Positions 6,001 to 12,000 of a DNA stretch of 43,127 nt are shown here, in pieces. How positions within the stretch are numbered: the stretch's first letter is position 1; every line of letters begins with the position of its first letter. Made by a program: the position numbers. Source of the stretch: a virus (Duplodnaviria > Heunggongvirae > Uroviricota > Caudoviricetes); IMG/VR virus record IMGVR_UViG_2562617113_000019, one strand, 5' to 3'.

Positions 6001-9000
6001 AGGAAAATTAGTGGCAACAGCTTTAAAATAGCTGCTCAGTTTTTTACCTGATTTAACGATCAGGTAGTCCAGAGTGGCGCAGGTCGATTCAAAATCGTCG
6101 CTTGCCCACAGGACGACGTCAGGTTCACCGGATGATTTTTTCGCTTTCCGTAACAGGAAGAGTGGTTTCGCGCTCATTGTTTTTTAACCTCAACTCAGAT
6201 TAAAATTCGTTTTGTTCAGTGAATGATCTTGCCGGATACACACTGTTCATAGCCTGCGCCATACGCAGGCTATTTCTTTCAGATTTCACCTTTTAATTTC
6301 ATTGCAATCAGCGTTGCCAGAAATGCGGCTTTTTTTTCTGCGGGCAGATTCTTACCAATGTGCACCAGACTCATTTTTTTGACACCTTCGTTAAGTGTTT
6401 TAACGTTGCCTGATGGACCATCGATATCAACCACAGTGAATGGGGTTTCTTTATTTTGTGTTTTAATCACGTGGCCAATGCGTTTTCCTTCCAGATAAAC
6501 CTCGTGAACAATGTTACCAGTAGTAACAACAGTGGATTCATAATTGGCAATCATGTTTTTCTCCTTAATTAAGGTTGAGCGAATCCCTGCCATTGTTGGC
6601 ATAAATTCAGTTTCGAGTAGTCAGTTAATTAAAGTTCGTGTGCCATCTGGTGTTTTTCGGCGCAACTTTCACTACAATATTTTTTCATTTCCGTCGTTGG
6701 GATAACTCCACGCATGAAATGAAGTGGTATTTTAATACTTTTGCTTTCTTGAATTTCTTTATTGCAAAGGTGGTAAGCACATTTGATTTTCTTAGCCATC
6801 ACCATGATTCCGCTTTTACAGGTAAACCATCACGACCGAGGAAGACTTTAATCATGCAGTCAGAAATGCATGTTTTTGTAGTCAGGCTACGAATATAAAG
6901 TTTTCGCTTTTTAATATTGTTTGCCGAGGCGATATATGTCCGACCTTCATGAAGAACATAATCGCCAGGGGTTACACACTGACGTGGTATTTCATCAGTT
7001 CCGAAGTGATGAGCAATCATAATCATCTCCATTTTTTCAAATGAACTTTGTTGATGCGGTGCCTGGTGCCTCCAGGTGATGTTAACCAGTTAACAATTAA
7101 CACCGGATACAAATACCCCCCCAAACTAATATAGAGTTTTTTAACTGTTCCGCGTGCGCTTAGCCGCATTCACCGCATCACAAAATTGACTTTAAAAAGG
7201 GCGGACATCAGTCGAACTTCAAGAAAAAACCGATGCCGCCAAAGACTACACACAGCAATGTCGTTATTCACAACCGGAGGCGCACTCCCACCATTTATAT
7301 TTAACAGACAAGACCGACTCTTTATTGATACCGGAAATGCGCCTTCGTGTTGTGCCCGGTTTTATTTCACCACCTCCGGGCTTCGGTGGTCTCGGCTATA
7401 CCCCTACAGCGAGAGCTTGTGTTAACATTTCAATACCCTTACAGTCGAGAGTTATTGAAATGTTGGATGTATTTACTCCATTGTTGAAACTTTTTGCTAA
7501 AGAGCCACATCGAAAGACTTATGTACACGATTATCATTTTTGGCCTCACTCTCTGGCTGATACCGAAAGAGTTTGCTGTCGTATTTAATGCTTATACTGA
7601 AATAACCTGGCTCTTTCAGATTATAGTTTTTGCCTTTTCTTTCGTGGTTGCCATTTCCTTCTCAAGATTGCGAGCACATATTCAAAAACATTATTCATTG
7701 CTACCAGAGCAACGAGTATTGCTTCGTTTATCTGAGAAAGAAATCGCTGTATTTAAAGATTTCCTTAAAACAGGAAATCTTATTATCACTTCTCCTTGCC
7801 GTAACCCGGTTATGAAAAAATTAGAACGGAAGGGCATCATTCAACATCAGAGTGATGGCGCAAACTGTTCTTATTATCTCGTCACCGAAAAATACTCCCA
7901 CTTTATGAAGTTATTCTGGAACAGTAGGAGCAGACGTTTTAATCGTTAGCTTACTGTGTACTTCTCCAACCAGCGACGCGCGCCAACTTCGGTTTTAAAC
8001 GTTTTGCTTTTGGTATACGTCATGGCGGTGAACGTTCCATCCTGGTTGGGGAACACGCCACACACCAGGGATTCGTTGTTGCCAAGATCGATAGTATCCA
8101 TGTTGACCTCATTTTCCCTTAACGCTAGGGGAATTAGCTTCATAGTTGCTCCGTATCGTGGAGCCTACGACCTGCTTTTAACCACATCAGGTGAGGTGAT
8201 ATCCTTACAAATGGTAATTTGCTGTAAGGATATTAATTATGGATATTAAATTTCGCTGTCCTCATTGCCGATCTCGCTACATTGAGATCGATGAGCACTC
8301 TGGCTCTGACAATGATCGTTTTATCTGCGGTGATTGTTTTGCGGAAATCAAAGATTCTGATTTCAGTGAACACTTTAATAAAACAATCAATAAAATCATC
8401 CGGACAGTTAAAAACCGCAGGAACAAGTAGTTTGTATAACTTCTCAATCTGATGTCTCAGGGGGCTGGTATCTATTTTTAACACCAGTCCCTGCTTTTCA
8501 TCTGCGATCATCTTCGTATCCCCTTAACGCCGGGTGGCGGAACTGTTTGCTGAGAACACCGTGCGGTGTTTTGATGGGATGTAATTTAGTTTTCTCATTG
8601 TTTTTGGTCAAGTGTTTTTGATGAGAAAACTCAATATTTGACTCAAGATAAAGCCAATACATTGAAATGTAAGGCTTTAAAAATTTGTGATGGGGTGATT
8701 ATTGATGTTTGTTACGCTTGCGAGCTTCTAATAGCTCAGTAAATAGGCGATTAAAATTCTCAACTCGAGCGCTGAGTTCACTGATTTGTGCTTGTTGTTC
8801 GGATTTTGGAAGTGCGCGATACAGTCGCAACATCTCCAGTTCATCTTCCGATAAGTCTAAGGTGCTATTGAGTGAAACTGGGGCATCCGGAGTTTTATCC
8901 TCATCACCGAACAGTATCCAGGTCGGTGAGCATTGTAATACCTCGGCGAGTCTATGCAAATTTTGCCCGCGCGGGGCTGTATGGTCACTTTCCCATAATG

Positions 9001-12000
9001 AAATTGATGAGCCAGAAACGCCAGCAGCTTTGCTTAAACCACTTTGACTTAAGCCTACCTGCTTGCGTCTTTCTCTAATTCGTTGACCTAAAGTTTTCTC
9101 GTTCATATTTAGATATCTTAATAACCCTTGACTTGAGATTCCTTGAGTGATTAACATTGAGAAAACTCAATATTGGAGGTGCAATGTTTAAATCAGACGT
9201 AATTAATTATTACGGCACGAAAGCCAAAGTGGCGAAAGCTGCTGGCGTTGATCCATCTGCTGTTTCTCAATGGGGGGAACTGGTTCCTGAAGGCCGCGCG
9301 ATGCGTCTGCAAGAGGCATCTGGCGGGGAGCTTCAGTACGATTCAAATATCTATGACAAATATCGTAAGGCAAAGCGGGCGGGTAAGGGTATTCATGAAA
9401 ATCAGGCATGAGCACATTGAATCAGTGTTGTTAGCTCTGGCTGCCGAAAAAGGTCAGGCGTGGGTTGCCAACGCAATTACTGAAGAATATTTGCGCCAGG
9501 GGGAGAGTGAATTAGCCCTGGCGCCAGGCAAGGACTGGAACAATCAGCAAAACATCTATCACCGCTGGTTAAAAGGTGAAACAAAGGCGCAAAGGGAAAA
9601 AATCCAGAAGCTGATTCCAGCAATCCTGGCAATTCTTCCGCGCGAACTGCGACACCGCCTCAGCGTTTTTGACACCCTGGAACGTCGCGCATTACTGGCG
9701 GCTCAGGAAGCGCTGAATACGGCAATTGATGCACATGATGATGCTGTACAGGCCGTTTACCGGAAAGCGCATTTCAGCCGCGGTGGGTCTTCCGACGATT
9801 CTGTCATTGTTCATTAAGCAAAAGTTTTCATGCTGTTTGTGCTTATTCTAAGTCACCGGGCAGCATCATACGGGGCAATTATGGCCGCATTACCATACAT
9901 GCAACTGTACATAGCTGATTACCTGGCTGACACCATGCATTTGTCAGCAGAGGAGCACGGTGCGTATTTGTTGCTGATGTTCAATTACTGGCAAACAGGA
10001 AAGCCAATACCCAAAAACAGGCTGGCAAAAATTGCCCGTCTGACTAACGAGCGATGGGCTGATGTTGAACCATCTTTGCGGGAGTTTTTTTGCGATAACG
10101 GCGACGAATGGGTGCATCTTCGGATTGAGCGCGACCTTAAAAATATCGTTACAGCGCCAAGAGGGAAGAAATTACCAGAGGGAGAAAATTTATCTGAATA
10201 CAGGGGATACGTTTATTTCGTGACCAGCACGGAAATGGATACTGTGAAGATCGGATATTCAAAAAATCCCTGGGCAAGGCTTGGAGAACTACGACGTAGC
10301 TACGGTAGTAATCTTAGCGTAGTAGCTACGATAAAAACCGTAGAAAAATCGGAATCATCAATTCATGCATTGCTATCTGATTATCGAGTTAATGGTGAAT
10401 GGTTTGTTAAGAGTGAGTGTATTAAATCGTTAATAACACAAATCGTAGAAGGGAAAATAACTACCGTAGAAGCTACGAACAACTACGTTAGCAACTACGA
10501 AGTAGTTACTACAGTAGTTACTACGACAACTACAAATACAGATACAGATCTAAAAGAATTAAACCCCACACATAACGCGCGCGTGCGCGAGAGAGCTCCG
10601 ACCAGTGAGTCGAACGGTACGCCATCGCAGACAACGGAGCCCGAATATCTGGACGGCATGAGCGAACCCATCGGGAAATTTCCGATGACCGATGGCTGGC
10701 ATCCGTCGCCGGATTTTCGACGACGGGCTGCTCTGTGGGGAGTGGCTCTGCCTGAGCCGGAATTTACACCAGCTGAATTTGCAGCCTTCCGGGACTACTG
10801 GGCAGCGGAGGGGAAAGTGTTCACGCAGATTCAGTGGGAGCAGAAATTCGCCCGTCACGTAAATCACGTCAGGGCGCAGGTTAAACCAGTCAGCAAGGGG
10901 GTAAACCATGCAGCAGCACCAGGTGGCACCGCATCACGAGCAGTTCAGGAAATTCGGGCAGCACGTGAGCAGTGGGAACGTGAAAACGGATATATCAGCG
11001 ACGGAAACGGCCTGGAAGCTGTGGGAACTCATGGGGGAGGTTTATTCGAACCGCTGGACCCAGAAGAACGGGGCCGCACCTTCGAAGCTCTGGATTGCAC
11101 AGATTGGCGCGATGACTGAGCAGCAAATCCGGCAGGTCTGCCGCCAGTGCATGGACCGCTGCCGGGCGGGTGAAACATGGCCTCCGGACCTGGCTGAGTT
11201 TGTGGCGCTGATTTCGGAAAGCGGAGCCAATCCATTCGGTCTGACGGTGGATGCCGTGATGGAGGAATACCGCCGCTGGCGCAATGAGTCCTGGCGATAC
11301 GACGGAAGCGATAAATACCCGTGGTCTCAGCCTGTGCTGTATCACATTTGCCTCGAGATGCGTTCAAAGGGGATTGAGCGCCAGATGACCGAAGGGGAGT
11401 TAAAACGGCTTGCAGAATGGCAACTGACGAAATGGGCAAAGCATGTTGGTAATGGCCTGAGCATTCCGCCAGTCCGGCGACAACTGGCGGCACCCAAACG
11501 CCCGTCGGGACCAACGCCAATTGAGTTGCTGAAACAGGAATATGAACGCCGGAAAGCGGCTGGTTTTGTTTGAGTTGAGAAGTAATTTTTACCGGGAGGA
11601 AATTTTAATGGAGACCGTTTTTGACGCACTGAAAGCAATGGGAAAAGCCTCTTCCCAGGAAGTGGCTGCACGTCTGGGAATGACCCGGGATGAGGCGATT
11701 AATGAGCTGTGGAAACTGAAGCGTCGCGGGGAAGCTGACAACAAGGGCCCGATGTGGTGGTTGACTCAAACCGACGAAAACGCATCTGTGGCACAGGCTT
11801 CTAAAGTGACAGCGCAAATGCTGATCGAGGCGATTGAACAGCATGGCCCTAAAGCGGCTGATGAACTTGCACTGATATTCAGAATTACTTCCCGCAGGGT
11901 GAACTCATCGCTGGCTATGGCCATCAGCAAAGGTCGTCTGATTCGCGTAAATCAGAACGGTAAATTTCGTTACTGCCTGCCGGACGGTAATTTACCAGCA

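What the first reader, a model, noticed from the sequence alone, without database searches (positions are those of the whole stretch)
8590..9183. Identical 17-bp operator-like sites on both sides of the repressor gene
TGAGAAAACTCAATATT occurs exactly at 8622-8638 (3' side of the repressor gene, facing the leftward genes) and at 9158-9174 (repressor/cro divergent region, abutting the ydaS ribosome-binding site). The sequence contains TGAG/CTCA half-sites. This looks like an OL/OR-type arrangement for the CI-like repressor.
Basis: seen in the sequence. Interest (0 to 1): 0.4.

Follow-up and report, generated by a model that had tools for sequence, protein, structure and literature searches.

The report
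Operator sites of a DicA-type prophage switch
The two identical 17-bp sequences are real and are almost certainly operators of an ordinary lambdoid prophage on/off switch, a relative of the E. coli Qin DicA/DicC switch with its own, so far undescribed, DNA-recognition specificity.

Summary
TGAGAAAACTCAATATT occurs exactly at 8622-8638 and 9158-9174, nowhere else in the window, and is not part of a larger duplication. The functional unit is an 18-20 bp inverted repeat, ATTGAG-AAAA-CTCAAT. The last 3-4 bases of the 17-mer are unconstrained in relatives. A fifth look-alike inside the repressor coding sequence (9086-9105) is not conserved and is rejected. The repressor is a 135-aa DicA homologue: its N-terminal domain resembles P22 C2 and it has no autocleavage domain. 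The cro gene is DicC/P22-Cro-like, not ydaS. R1 sits at the position of K-12 operator Oc, where DicA binding was shown experimentally. Across 135 distinct related loci, each recognition-helix class carries its own palindrome at the same three positions. A model built from R1 sites alone finds two OL sites 35-36 bp apart in its own class but not in the other major class. Binding in this prophage is inferred, not shown. Verdict: a new member of a known kind, of low to moderate interest.

The parts
9154..9173 (.). R1, the main right operator: ACATTGAG-AAAA-CTCAATAT.
   Evidence: Top PWM hit in the window (24.2) with a PWM trained on other loci only. Its centre is +57.5 from the repressor ATG in all class members. 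It is position-homologous to K-12 Oc. The core ATTGAGAAAACTCAA is invariant across 26 distinct OR sequences.
8618..8637 (.). L1, the left operator upstream of the PL -35: TTGATGAG-AAAA-CTCAATAT.
   Evidence: PWM score 20.1. A model built from R1 sites alone finds it. It lies 36 bp centre-to-centre from L2 in 61 of 65 distinct loci of this class. The core ATGAGAAAACTCAA is conserved.
8582..8601 (.). It overlaps the spacer and -10 of the leftward promoter.
   Evidence: Inverted repeats I3 and I5. PWM score 19.2. TAATTTAGTTTTCTCAT is invariant in E. coli relatives and its inner half is kept in Buttiauxella.
9105..9124 (.). R3, a probable weak operator: ATATTTAG-ATAT-CTTAATAA. It abuts the repressor start codon and lies upstream of the PR -35, at the position of K-12 'Oa'.
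   Evidence: PWM score 17.4, the fourth-best hit in the window and above the mean shuffle maximum of 12.7, though below the largest shuffle value of 18.4. It is fully invariant in the population. Its left arm changes with specificity class: TTGTTGAG in L103, TAGTTAGC in the K-12 class. Caveat: K-12 Oa did not bind DicA as an isolated site (PMC3441716).
9128..9157 (+). PR-type promoter for the cro-like operon: TTGACT, 18 nt, TAACAT.
   Evidence: Consensus scan. Same layout as K-12 dicCp, whose start site was mapped by 5'RACE (PMC3441716). Population variation follows a TAnnAT pattern.
8583..8611 (-). PL-type promoter for the leftward early operon: TTGACC, 17 nt, TAAATT.
   Evidence: Consensus scan. 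An equivalent TTGACC-17-TAATCT lies at K-12 dicBp. It is present in all classes examined.
8699..9106 (-). Repressor gene, 135 aa, DicA-like. The longer 152-aa reading from 9157 is unlikely.
   Evidence: Pfam HTH_3, E 2.5e-15, with no peptidase domain. It is 54% identical to K-12 DicA over its full length. Its N-terminal domain matches the P22 C2 N-terminal domain at E 2.7e-16, without gaps. RefSeq annotates the 135-aa form.
9184..9411 (+). Cro-like gene (DicC / P22_Cro family).
   Evidence: PF14549 scores 66.5 bits against a cut-off of 30.2. YdaS_toxin scores only 21.7 against a cut-off of 30.
9395..9817 (+). YdaT/CII-like gene, with a YdaT-box-like inverted repeat at 9388-9405 spanning its ATG.
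   Evidence: PF06254 scores 45.3 bits. The box was compared with the Rac YdaT-box in PMC11879457.
8649..8679 (-). Hairpin between the repressor stop and L1, probably the terminator of the repressor gene.
   Evidence: Free energy -11.3 kcal/mol, z-score -3.3. Nearly invariant in the population.

Best explanation
The repeats are operators of a DicA/DicC-type lambdoid immunity switch. A dimer of the 135-aa repressor recognises an 18-20 bp inverted repeat with consensus (C/T)ATTGAG-AAAA-CTCAAT. The helix-turn-helix of each monomer reads one ATTGAG half-site, and the central A-tract is read indirectly, as in P22 C2. At OR, site R1 covers the -10 and +1 of the rightward promoter and blocks transcription of the cro-ydaT-replication operon. 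By analogy with K-12 DicA at Oc, R1 probably also stimulates the weak repressor promoter. R3, next to the repressor ATG, is a likely low-affinity autoregulatory site. At OL, L2 covers the spacer and -10 of the leftward promoter, and L1 sits just upstream of the -35 hexamer, 36 bp from L2. Together they shut off the leftward early operon (92-aa ORF, DUF1391, DicF-like sRNA, kil, recET). The Cro/DicC-like protein probably uses the same sites. Because the repressor has no autocleavage domain, induction is expected to go through an antirepressor (a Rem homologue is encoded at 19784-20041) or repressor instability, not through RecA cleavage. Shown here: the existence, positions, conservation and covariation of the sites, and the homology of the proteins. 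Inferred: actual binding, activation of the repressor promoter, the role of R3, sharing of sites with Cro, and the induction route.
For: The exact repeat is far beyond chance. Four sites share one geometry, and a PWM trained only on other loci places R1, L1, L2 and R3 as the top four hits in 43 kb; the next hit scores 11.4, at shuffle level. Promoter hexamers are overlapped or bracketed by the sites. K-12 Qin has the identical layout with a different palindrome. Its Oc site (TTGTTAGTCATAACTAACAA) binds DicA in vivo, one base change abolishes binding, and binding represses dicC and activates dicA (PMC3441716). dicBp is repressed 22-fold by DicA (PMC10448788). Reg-Seq recovers the DicA site at dicC (PMC7567609). 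Covariation was tested on 135 distinct loci in 7 recognition-helix groups. SGSSISLWESD goes with ATATTGAG, SHVSVSQWERD/G with TTGTTAGT, and SHATISLWESD, SYATISLWESD and SHSTISLWESD with TTGTT(A/G)A(G/T)-like half-sites, always at +57.5 to +60.5 from the repressor ATG. R1-only models find a second OL site in their own class (mean scores 6.9 and 10.9) but not in the other major class (-8.3 and -19.6). The top two OL sites are 35-36 bp apart in more than 90% of loci. In Buttiauxella (74-75% protein identity) the flanks have diverged but TTGAGAAAACTCA is kept at all three positions. In the population, 4% of core columns are variable against 22% of other non-coding columns (Fisher p = 0.007). The repressor's N-terminal domain aligns without gaps to P22 C2. 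P22 C2 binds 18-bp operators, contacts positions 2-7 and 12-17, and leaves an A/T-rich 4-bp centre uncontacted (PMC4267663). That is exactly the invariant pattern found here. P22 contact residues Val33 and Gln37 (PMC5175364) are Ser and Leu in this class, but Val and Gln in the K-12 class.
Against: There is no binding or expression experiment for this repressor class, and the operator string is absent from the searchable literature. The Cro-like protein co-varies as well, so comparative data cannot say which of the two proteins, or both, reads each site. K-12 'Oa' and 'Om' did not bind DicA as isolated sites, which weakens the case for R3. R3's sequence is also kept in classes with somewhat different half-sites. 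The 35-36 bp L1-L2 spacing is about 3.4 helical turns, which is not the phasing expected for simple side-by-side cooperativity. Most of the loci are closely related, so the counts are not independent events; the independent support comes from about 5 classes plus the Buttiauxella and Citrobacter members.
Confidence: 0.85

Rival explanations
1. The sites are read mainly or only by the Cro/DicC-like protein (9184-9411), or by another factor of the module, and the DicA-like repressor acts elsewhere.
For: The Cro-like protein also differs between classes (its HTH in K-12 DicC differs from the window's), so covariation does not tell the two proteins apart. In lambda-like switches Cro does bind the same operators (established knowledge).
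Against: DicA itself was shown to bind the position-homologous Oc site in K-12 and to repress dicC and dicB. The geometry and conserved positions match the contact map of the repressor's structural homologue P22 C2. The usual outcome is that both proteins share the sites, and that is part of the best explanation rather than a rival to it.
Confidence: 0.07
2. The repeat is a by-product of similar promoter architecture or of module-exchange recombination and has no protein-binding role. This covers the reader's own 'duplicated segment' alternative.
For: Both copies lie next to sigma-70-like promoters. Immunity modules are mosaic, and the window itself is mosaic relative to its nearest genome.
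Against: Identity is limited to 17-20 bp. The copies sit at different positions relative to their promoters: +1 for R1, -51 for L1. The cores are conserved while the immediate flanks are hypervariable. The palindrome changes in step with the recognition helix at all positions.
Confidence: 0.03
3. The sites are targets of the YdaT/CII-like regulator encoded two genes to the right.
For: Rac YdaT binds within the racR-ydaS intergenic region (PMC11879457).
Against: The known YdaT box is TTGATT-N6-AATCAA. A look-alike sits at the ydaT start (9388-9405), and it is unrelated to ATTGAG-AAAA-CTCAAT.
Confidence: 0.02
4. Chance similarity in AT-rich intergenic DNA.
For: The last 3 bases of the 17-mer are indeed a coincidence of unconstrained flanks.
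Against: None of 300 shuffles reaches 17 nt, and 0.21 hits are expected even with 3 mismatches allowed. The site is conserved in other genera.
Confidence: 0.01

Closest known systems
DicA/DicC immunity locus of the E. coli K-12 Qin (Kim) cryptic prophage (operator Oc, promoters dicCp and dicBp)
   Same: The gene order is the same: cro-like gene, divergent 135-aa repressor, then a PL-type promoter driving a DUF1391...DicF...division-inhibitor operon. The repressor is 54% identical. A 20-bp 8-4-8 inverted repeat lies just after the PR -10, and two sites bracket the PL -35 at 35-36 bp. The leader hairpin and its flanking block are conserved, and a Rem-like protein sits next to hokD.
   Different: The operator sequence differs (ATTGAG-AAAA-CTCAAT versus TTGTTAGT-N4-ACTAACAA), as does the recognition helix (SGSSISLWESD versus SHVSVSQWERG), so the two are predicted to be heteroimmune. 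R1's centre is 2 bp closer to the repressor ATG. This prophage sits at the Rac attachment site and carries kilR/recET rather than dicB. An extra 92-aa ORF is inserted between PL and the DUF1391 gene.
Phage P22 C2 repressor and its operators (consensus ATTTAAG-ATAT-CTTAAAT)
   Same: The N-terminal DNA-binding domains are homologous (E 2.7e-16, no gaps). The operator geometry is the same 7-4-7 with an A/T-rich uncontacted centre, and the half-sites share nnTTnAG.
   Different: There is no C-terminal S24 autocleavage/oligomerisation domain. The residues at contact positions differ (N32G, V33S, Q37L). There are not three closely spaced operators on each side.
Lambda CI/Cro with OL1-3 and OR1-3
   Same: The logic is the same: operators on both sides of the repressor gene control divergent early promoters, and the repressor and cro genes are divergent.
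   Different: The repressor family and site geometry differ. There are fewer sites and they are more widely spaced. No RecA-cleavable repressor is present. OL-OR looping is unknown here.
RacR/YdaS/YdaT module of the K-12 Rac prophage
   Same: The chromosomal site (ttcA-intR) and leftward genes (recET, kilR, sieB, ydaF) are the same. A YdaT-family gene with a YdaT-box-like repeat at its start is present.
   Different: The repressor and cro genes are of the DicA/DicC type, not RacR/YdaS; the YdaS model scores below its cut-off.
Non-cleavable repressors controlled by antirepressors (Gifsy phages; DicA-Rem)
   Same: The repressor is short and lacks the Ala-Gly/S24 domain. A Rem homologue is encoded in the same prophage.
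   Different: No functional link between the Rem-like protein and this repressor has been tested.

Membership tests
DicA/DicC (Qin-type) immunity module | A ~135-aa repressor with a P22-C2-like HTH and the conserved C-terminal half (VLQCSPTWILFGDEDK...NFNxLFxELLxAR) | tested here: met
   54% identity to K-12 DicA over 135 aa, with the C-terminal half nearly invariant. Pfam finds HTH_3 only.
DicA/DicC (Qin-type) immunity module | A divergent cro gene of the DicC/P22_Cro family | tested here: met
   PF14549 scores 66.5 bits against a cut-off of 30.2.
DicA/DicC (Qin-type) immunity module | A 20-bp inverted-repeat operator overlapping the end of the cro-promoter -10 (the Oc position) | tested here: met
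   R1 at 9154-9173, with 7 of 8 arm positions symmetric, at the same offset class as Oc (+57.5 versus +59.5 from the ATG).
DicA/DicC (Qin-type) immunity module | A PL-type promoter immediately downstream of the repressor gene, driving a DUF1391-DicF-division-inhibitor operon and carrying matching operators | tested here: met
   TTGACC-17-TAAATT with L2 and L1. DUF1391 scores 96.9 bits. A DicF-like RNA scores 44.9 bits, just under the gathering score of 48. kilR is annotated in the collinear 98.6% block of NZ_CP076272.
DicA/DicC (Qin-type) immunity module | The same operator specificity (immunity) as K-12 DicA | tested here: not met
   The half-site is ATATTGAG rather than TTGTTAGT. The K-12-class model scores -19.6 on this class's OL regions. 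It is the same family with a different specificity.
DicA/DicC (Qin-type) immunity module | The repressor physically binds the operators and represses PR and PL | not testable with these tools
   Needs EMSA, footprinting or reporter fusions. Only the K-12 homologue has such data.
Classical lambda/P22/434 CI-type repressor | A C-terminal S24 (LexA-like) autocleavage domain enabling RecA-dependent induction | tested here: not met
   The protein has 135 aa and no Peptidase_S24 hit. Homology to P22 C2 covers residues 1-72 only.
Classical lambda/P22/434 CI-type repressor | Three closely spaced operators at each of OL and OR | tested here: not met
   Only two OL sites are found, 36 bp apart. OR has one strong and one weak site, 49 bp apart. 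The TTGAG half-sites inside the PR spacer are not conserved.
P22 C2-type operator | Rotationally symmetric 18 bp with contacted positions 2-7 and 12-17 and an A/T-rich uncontacted 4-bp centre | tested here: met
   The invariant positions are ATTGAG, AAAA and CTCAA(T). Position 1, position 18 and everything outside them are hypervariable, matching PMC4267663.
   PF15943 scores 21.7 bits, below the cut-off of 30, and the P22_Cro model wins.

The most novel reading that the evidence does not exclude
DicA-type switches may repress PL in a way that differs from the lambda paradigm. Two repressor dimers bracket the -35 hexamer at a fixed spacing of 35-36 bp (about 3.4 helical turns), and this spacing is conserved in every specificity class. 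A single strong OR site would both block PR and activate the repressor promoter from about -58. The family has split into at least 4-5 heteroimmune classes through coordinated changes at recognition-helix positions 32, 33 and 37 and at operator positions 2-6. If so, it would be a natural set of small, SOS-independent, orthogonal repressor/operator pairs.
Probability: 0.25. Interest if true: 0.45.

Novelty: new member of a known kind. Interest (0 to 1): 0.25.

Why it matters
This immunity class is common. About 800 of 5,426 complete E. coli genomes carry a close copy, as do phages mEp460 and HannyBb. In this window it controls a prophage that carries LT-II enterotoxin and a pertussis-like toxin gene. 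Knowing the operators gives the likely control points for prophage induction, and perhaps for toxin expression. It also predicts which DicA-type prophages are immune to one another. In addition, it supplies the OL-side sites, whose location at K-12 dicB is still listed as unknown (PMC7567609). Conceptually this is a textbook arrangement, so the gain is annotation-level rather than a new principle.

Tried and rejected
(1) A fifth copy, R2 (9086-9105, rc TGAACGAG-AAAA-CTTTAGGT), lies inside repressor codons 1-7. It is not among the top PWM hits and is lost in Buttiauxella, where the protein starts MNEM rather than MNEK, so it is treated as a coding coincidence.

(2) Two direct TTGAG half-sites lie in the PR spacer (9134-9138 and 9144-9148, the 'Om' position). 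They vary in the population (TTGAA, TTGCG, CTGAG) and are not treated as an operator. This agrees with K-12 Om not binding DicA.

(3) A larger duplication is ruled out: the repeat is limited to 17-20 bp.

(4) No further copies exist elsewhere in the 43-kb window above shuffle level. The 3-mismatch hit at 7128-7144 scores only 8.3.

(5) A full-text literature search for GAGAAAACTCAA found only unrelated mammalian primer sequences. A search for mEp460 found no work on its immunity region. Bejar 1986 (PMC311701) is not held.

(6) For K-12-class loci, exact-word sharing between OR and OL is not significant (8-10 nt), because those sites are more degenerate. The PWM test was needed instead.

(7) My first alignment of the leader used wrong coordinates. 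I redid it anchored on the GTTCCGC motif.

(8) Transferring annotation from NZ_CP076272 to the whole window was abandoned once blastn showed only five collinear blocks. The cargo genes were re-tested directly in the window.

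
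Full report
**Observation**

The 17-mer TGAGAAAACTCAATATT is present exactly at 8622-8638 and 9158-9174. Allowing three mismatches, the window holds three hits where 0.21 are expected. The 17-mer is the longest word shared between the 110 nt upstream and the 200 nt downstream of the repressor gene; 300 shuffles give a mean of 7.7 nt and a maximum of 10. Identity ends after 17 nt (20 nt at 95%), so the repeat is not part of a larger duplicated segment.

**Genes**

- The gene between the copies (8699-9106, minus strand) encodes a 135-aa helix-turn-helix protein with no peptidase domain.
- It is 54% identical over its full length to K-12 DicA.
- Residues 1-72 align without gaps to the DNA-binding domain of the P22 C2 repressor (E 2.7e-16).
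- The divergent gene (9184-9411) belongs to the P22_Cro/DicC family; the YdaS model scores below its cut-off.
- A YdaT/CII-like gene follows it.
- Leftward lie a 92-aa ORF, a DUF1391 (ydfA/ydaF-like) gene and a DicF-like sRNA.
- In the collinear block of the nearest complete genome, kilR, recE and recT follow.
- The prophage sits at the Rac site (intR/xisR) and is mosaic relative to that genome.

Repeat finding revealed an inverted copy at 8584-8598 and a partial inverted copy at 9092-9103. Written in an 8-4-8 register, the sites are:

| Site | Coordinates | Sequence |
|---|---|---|
| R1 | 9154-9173 | ACATTGAG-AAAA-CTCAATAT |
| L1 | 8618-8637 | TTGATGAG-AAAA-CTCAATAT |
| L2 | 8582-8601 | TAATTTAG-TTTT-CTCATTGT |
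| R3 | 9105-9124 | ATATTTAG-ATAT-CTTAATAA |
| R2 | 9086-9105 | inside the repressor's first codons |

A palindromic half-site PWM trained only on sites from other loci ranks R1 (24.2), L1 (20.1), L2 (19.2) and R3 (17.4) as the four best hits in the 43-kb window. The fifth hit scores 11.4. The maximum over shuffled windows averages 12.7, with a largest value of 18.4. R2 is not among the top hits and is not conserved in Buttiauxella, so I reject it.

**Relation to promoters**

- A consensus scan finds a rightward promoter, TTGACT-18-TAACAT (9128-9157). R1 overlaps the last four bases of its -10 and the predicted start site, and it ends one base before the cro RBS.
- The same scan finds a leftward promoter, TTGACC-17-TAAATT (8611..8583). 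L2 covers its spacer and -10, and L1 lies just upstream of its -35.
- R3 lies upstream of the PR -35 and abuts the repressor ATG.

**Anchor in experiment**

K-12 Qin has the same layout with a different palindrome:

- TTGTTAGTTATGACTAACAA lies just after the dicC -10.
- AGATTAGCCATGACTAACAT lies over the dicB-operon promoter (TTGACC-17-TAATCT).
- A third copy lies upstream of that promoter's -35.
- An Oa-like sequence abuts the dicA ATG.

Yun et al. (PMC3441716) showed in vivo that DicA binds the 20-nt inverted repeat Oc. A single A-to-C change abolishes binding. Binding represses dicC and activates dicA. The sequence-predicted sites Oa and Om did not bind as isolated sites. DicA represses dicBp 22-fold, lacks the RecA cleavage site, and is antagonised by the antirepressor Rem (PMC10448788). 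Reg-Seq recovered the DicA site at dicC but lists the DicA site at dicB as unknown (PMC7567609).

**Comparative test**

Scans of genome and viral collections gave about 250 loci, of which 135 have distinct flanking sequences.

- A blind search for the most symmetric inverted repeat 40-75 nt from the repressor ATG recovers a site at a fixed offset (+57.5 to +60.5). Its sequence tracks the recognition helix:

| Recognition helix | Half-site | Distinct loci |
|---|---|---|
| SGSSISLWESD / SDSSISLWESD | ATATTGAG | 65 + 1 |
| SHVSVSQWERD / SHVSVSQWERG | TTGTTAGT | 55 + 4 |
| SHATISLWESD, SYATISLWESD, SHSTISLWESD | TTGTT(A/G)A(G/T)-like | 6, 3, 1 |

- Half-site models built only from R1 sites find a second OL site in their own class (mean scores 6.9 and 10.9) but not in the other major class (-8.3 and -19.6).
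- The two best OL sites are 36 bp apart in 61 of 65 loci of the window's class, and 35 or 36 bp apart in 51 of 55 loci of the K-12 class.
- In two Buttiauxella species (74-75% protein identity) the flanks have diverged, yet TTGAGAAAACTCA is retained at R1 and L1, and the inner half of L2 is retained too.
- R3's left arm also changes with class: TTGTTGAG in L103 and TAGTTAGC in the K-12 class.

**Population constraint**

Among 26 distinct OR and 42 distinct OL sequences of the window's class, the operator cores deviate from the majority base at a mean of 0.020 per column, against 0.067 for other non-coding columns. Variable columns make up 4% of core columns and 22% of the others (Fisher p = 0.007, Mann-Whitney p = 0.011). 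The hypervariable positions directly flank the cores. The constrained unit is therefore ATTGAG-AAAA-CTCAA(T). This matches the P22 repressor contact map: an 18-bp site contacted at positions 2-7 and 12-17, with an uncontacted centre where A-tracts are favoured (PMC4267663). P22 contact residues Val33 and Gln37 (PMC5175364) are Ser and Leu in this class and Val and Gln in the K-12 class.

**Mechanism**

The best-supported model is a DicA/DicC-type bistable switch.

- Repressor dimers at R1 block PR and probably stimulate the repressor promoter.
- Dimers at L2 and L1 block PL.
- R3 is a candidate low-affinity autoregulatory site.
- Cro probably shares the sites.
- Induction is expected to go through a Rem-like antirepressor (58% identical to K-12 Rem, encoded at 19784-20041) or through repressor instability, not through RecA cleavage.

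The sites, their positions, their conservation and covariation, and the protein homologies are shown here. Binding, activation, the role of R3 and the induction route are inferred.

**Novelty**

The architecture is known from Qin (Bejar 1988, as cited; Yun 2012). This specificity class is widespread: about 800 of 5,426 complete E. coli genomes and phages mEp460 and HannyBb. Its operator string does not appear in the searchable literature. It is a new member of a known kind. The one structural point that departs from the lambda paradigm is the conserved 35-36 bp bracket of the PL -35 by two sites.

Noticed in passing
window 8519-8570 (minus-strand transcript, leader of the leftward operon): The hairpin AACACCG-CAC-GGTGTT (8555-8570) is kept by compensatory changes in other specificity classes (for example AATCACT-CAGC-AGTGATT in Buttiauxella). 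It is followed by a near-invariant block, GTTCCGCnACCCnGCGnTAnnGGG, that runs into the RBS of the first leftward ORF. This stretch is what matches K-12, REL606 and many other genomes. Its function is unknown; it could be a nut-like or processing element.
   Followed up: partly
window 8649-8679 (minus strand): A stable hairpin (-11.3 kcal/mol, z-score -3.3) lies between the repressor stop and L1 and is almost invariant in the population. It is probably the terminator of the repressor gene, insulating PL from read-through. The U-tail is poor in this window and better in the major clade.
   Followed up: partly
window 9388-9405: GGTATT-CATGAA-AATCAG spans the ydaT start codon. It resembles the footprinted Rac YdaT-box, ATGATT-CATGAA-AATCAA (PMC11879457), which suggests CII-like control of a reverse promoter for the repressor.
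   Followed up: no
window 7199-7254 (-) and 7047-7187 (-): A DicF-like sRNA scores 44.9 bits (gathering score 48, E 9e-8). An STnc100-like match scores 43.1 bits (gathering score 47). Both lie in the leftward operon.
   Followed up: no
window 8200-8511: A 63-aa zinc-ribbon ORF (CxxC...CxxC, 8239-8430, + strand) lies antisense to the 92-aa ORF that RefSeq annotates (8233-8511, - strand, no Pfam hit). A 33-bp palindrome (8200-8232) precedes it. It is unclear which strand is really coding. This segment is an insertion relative to mEp460 and K-12, where PL leads straight into the DUF1391 gene.
   Followed up: partly
window 19784-20041 (+): An ORF 58% identical to the K-12 Rem antirepressor (E 5e-27), in the segment collinear with the hokD region of NZ_CP076272. 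It is a candidate inducer of this non-cleavable repressor.
   Followed up: partly
window 21928-22653, 24783-25562, 25519-25917: Toxin cargo. A type II heat-labile enterotoxin A subunit (Enterotoxin_a, 391 bits) and B subunit (LT-IIB, 148 bits) lie directly after the GH108 endolysin (24162-24707). A pertussis-toxin-S1-like ADP-ribosyltransferase lies upstream of the lysis genes.
   Followed up: partly
window 14529-15506 (+): An AbiH abortive-infection gene (198 bits), together with an adjacent 341-aa ORF with no Pfam hit (13092-14117), lies in a segment absent from the nearest complete genome.
   Followed up: no
related loci L013-L092 (alignment): A minority of relatives carry substitutions inside operator cores. 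Examples: L1 ATGATAAAACTCAA in 7 loci (three distinct OL sequences), ATGAGAAATCTCAA, and R1 ATTAAGAAAACTCAA. These may be operator-down alleles in decaying prophages.
   Followed up: no
window 9105-9124: R3 (ATATTTAG-ATAT-CTTAATAA) is strikingly close to the P22 consensus operator, ATTTAAG-ATAT-CTTAAAT (PMC5175364). It is kept almost unchanged in classes whose main operators differ.
   Followed up: partly
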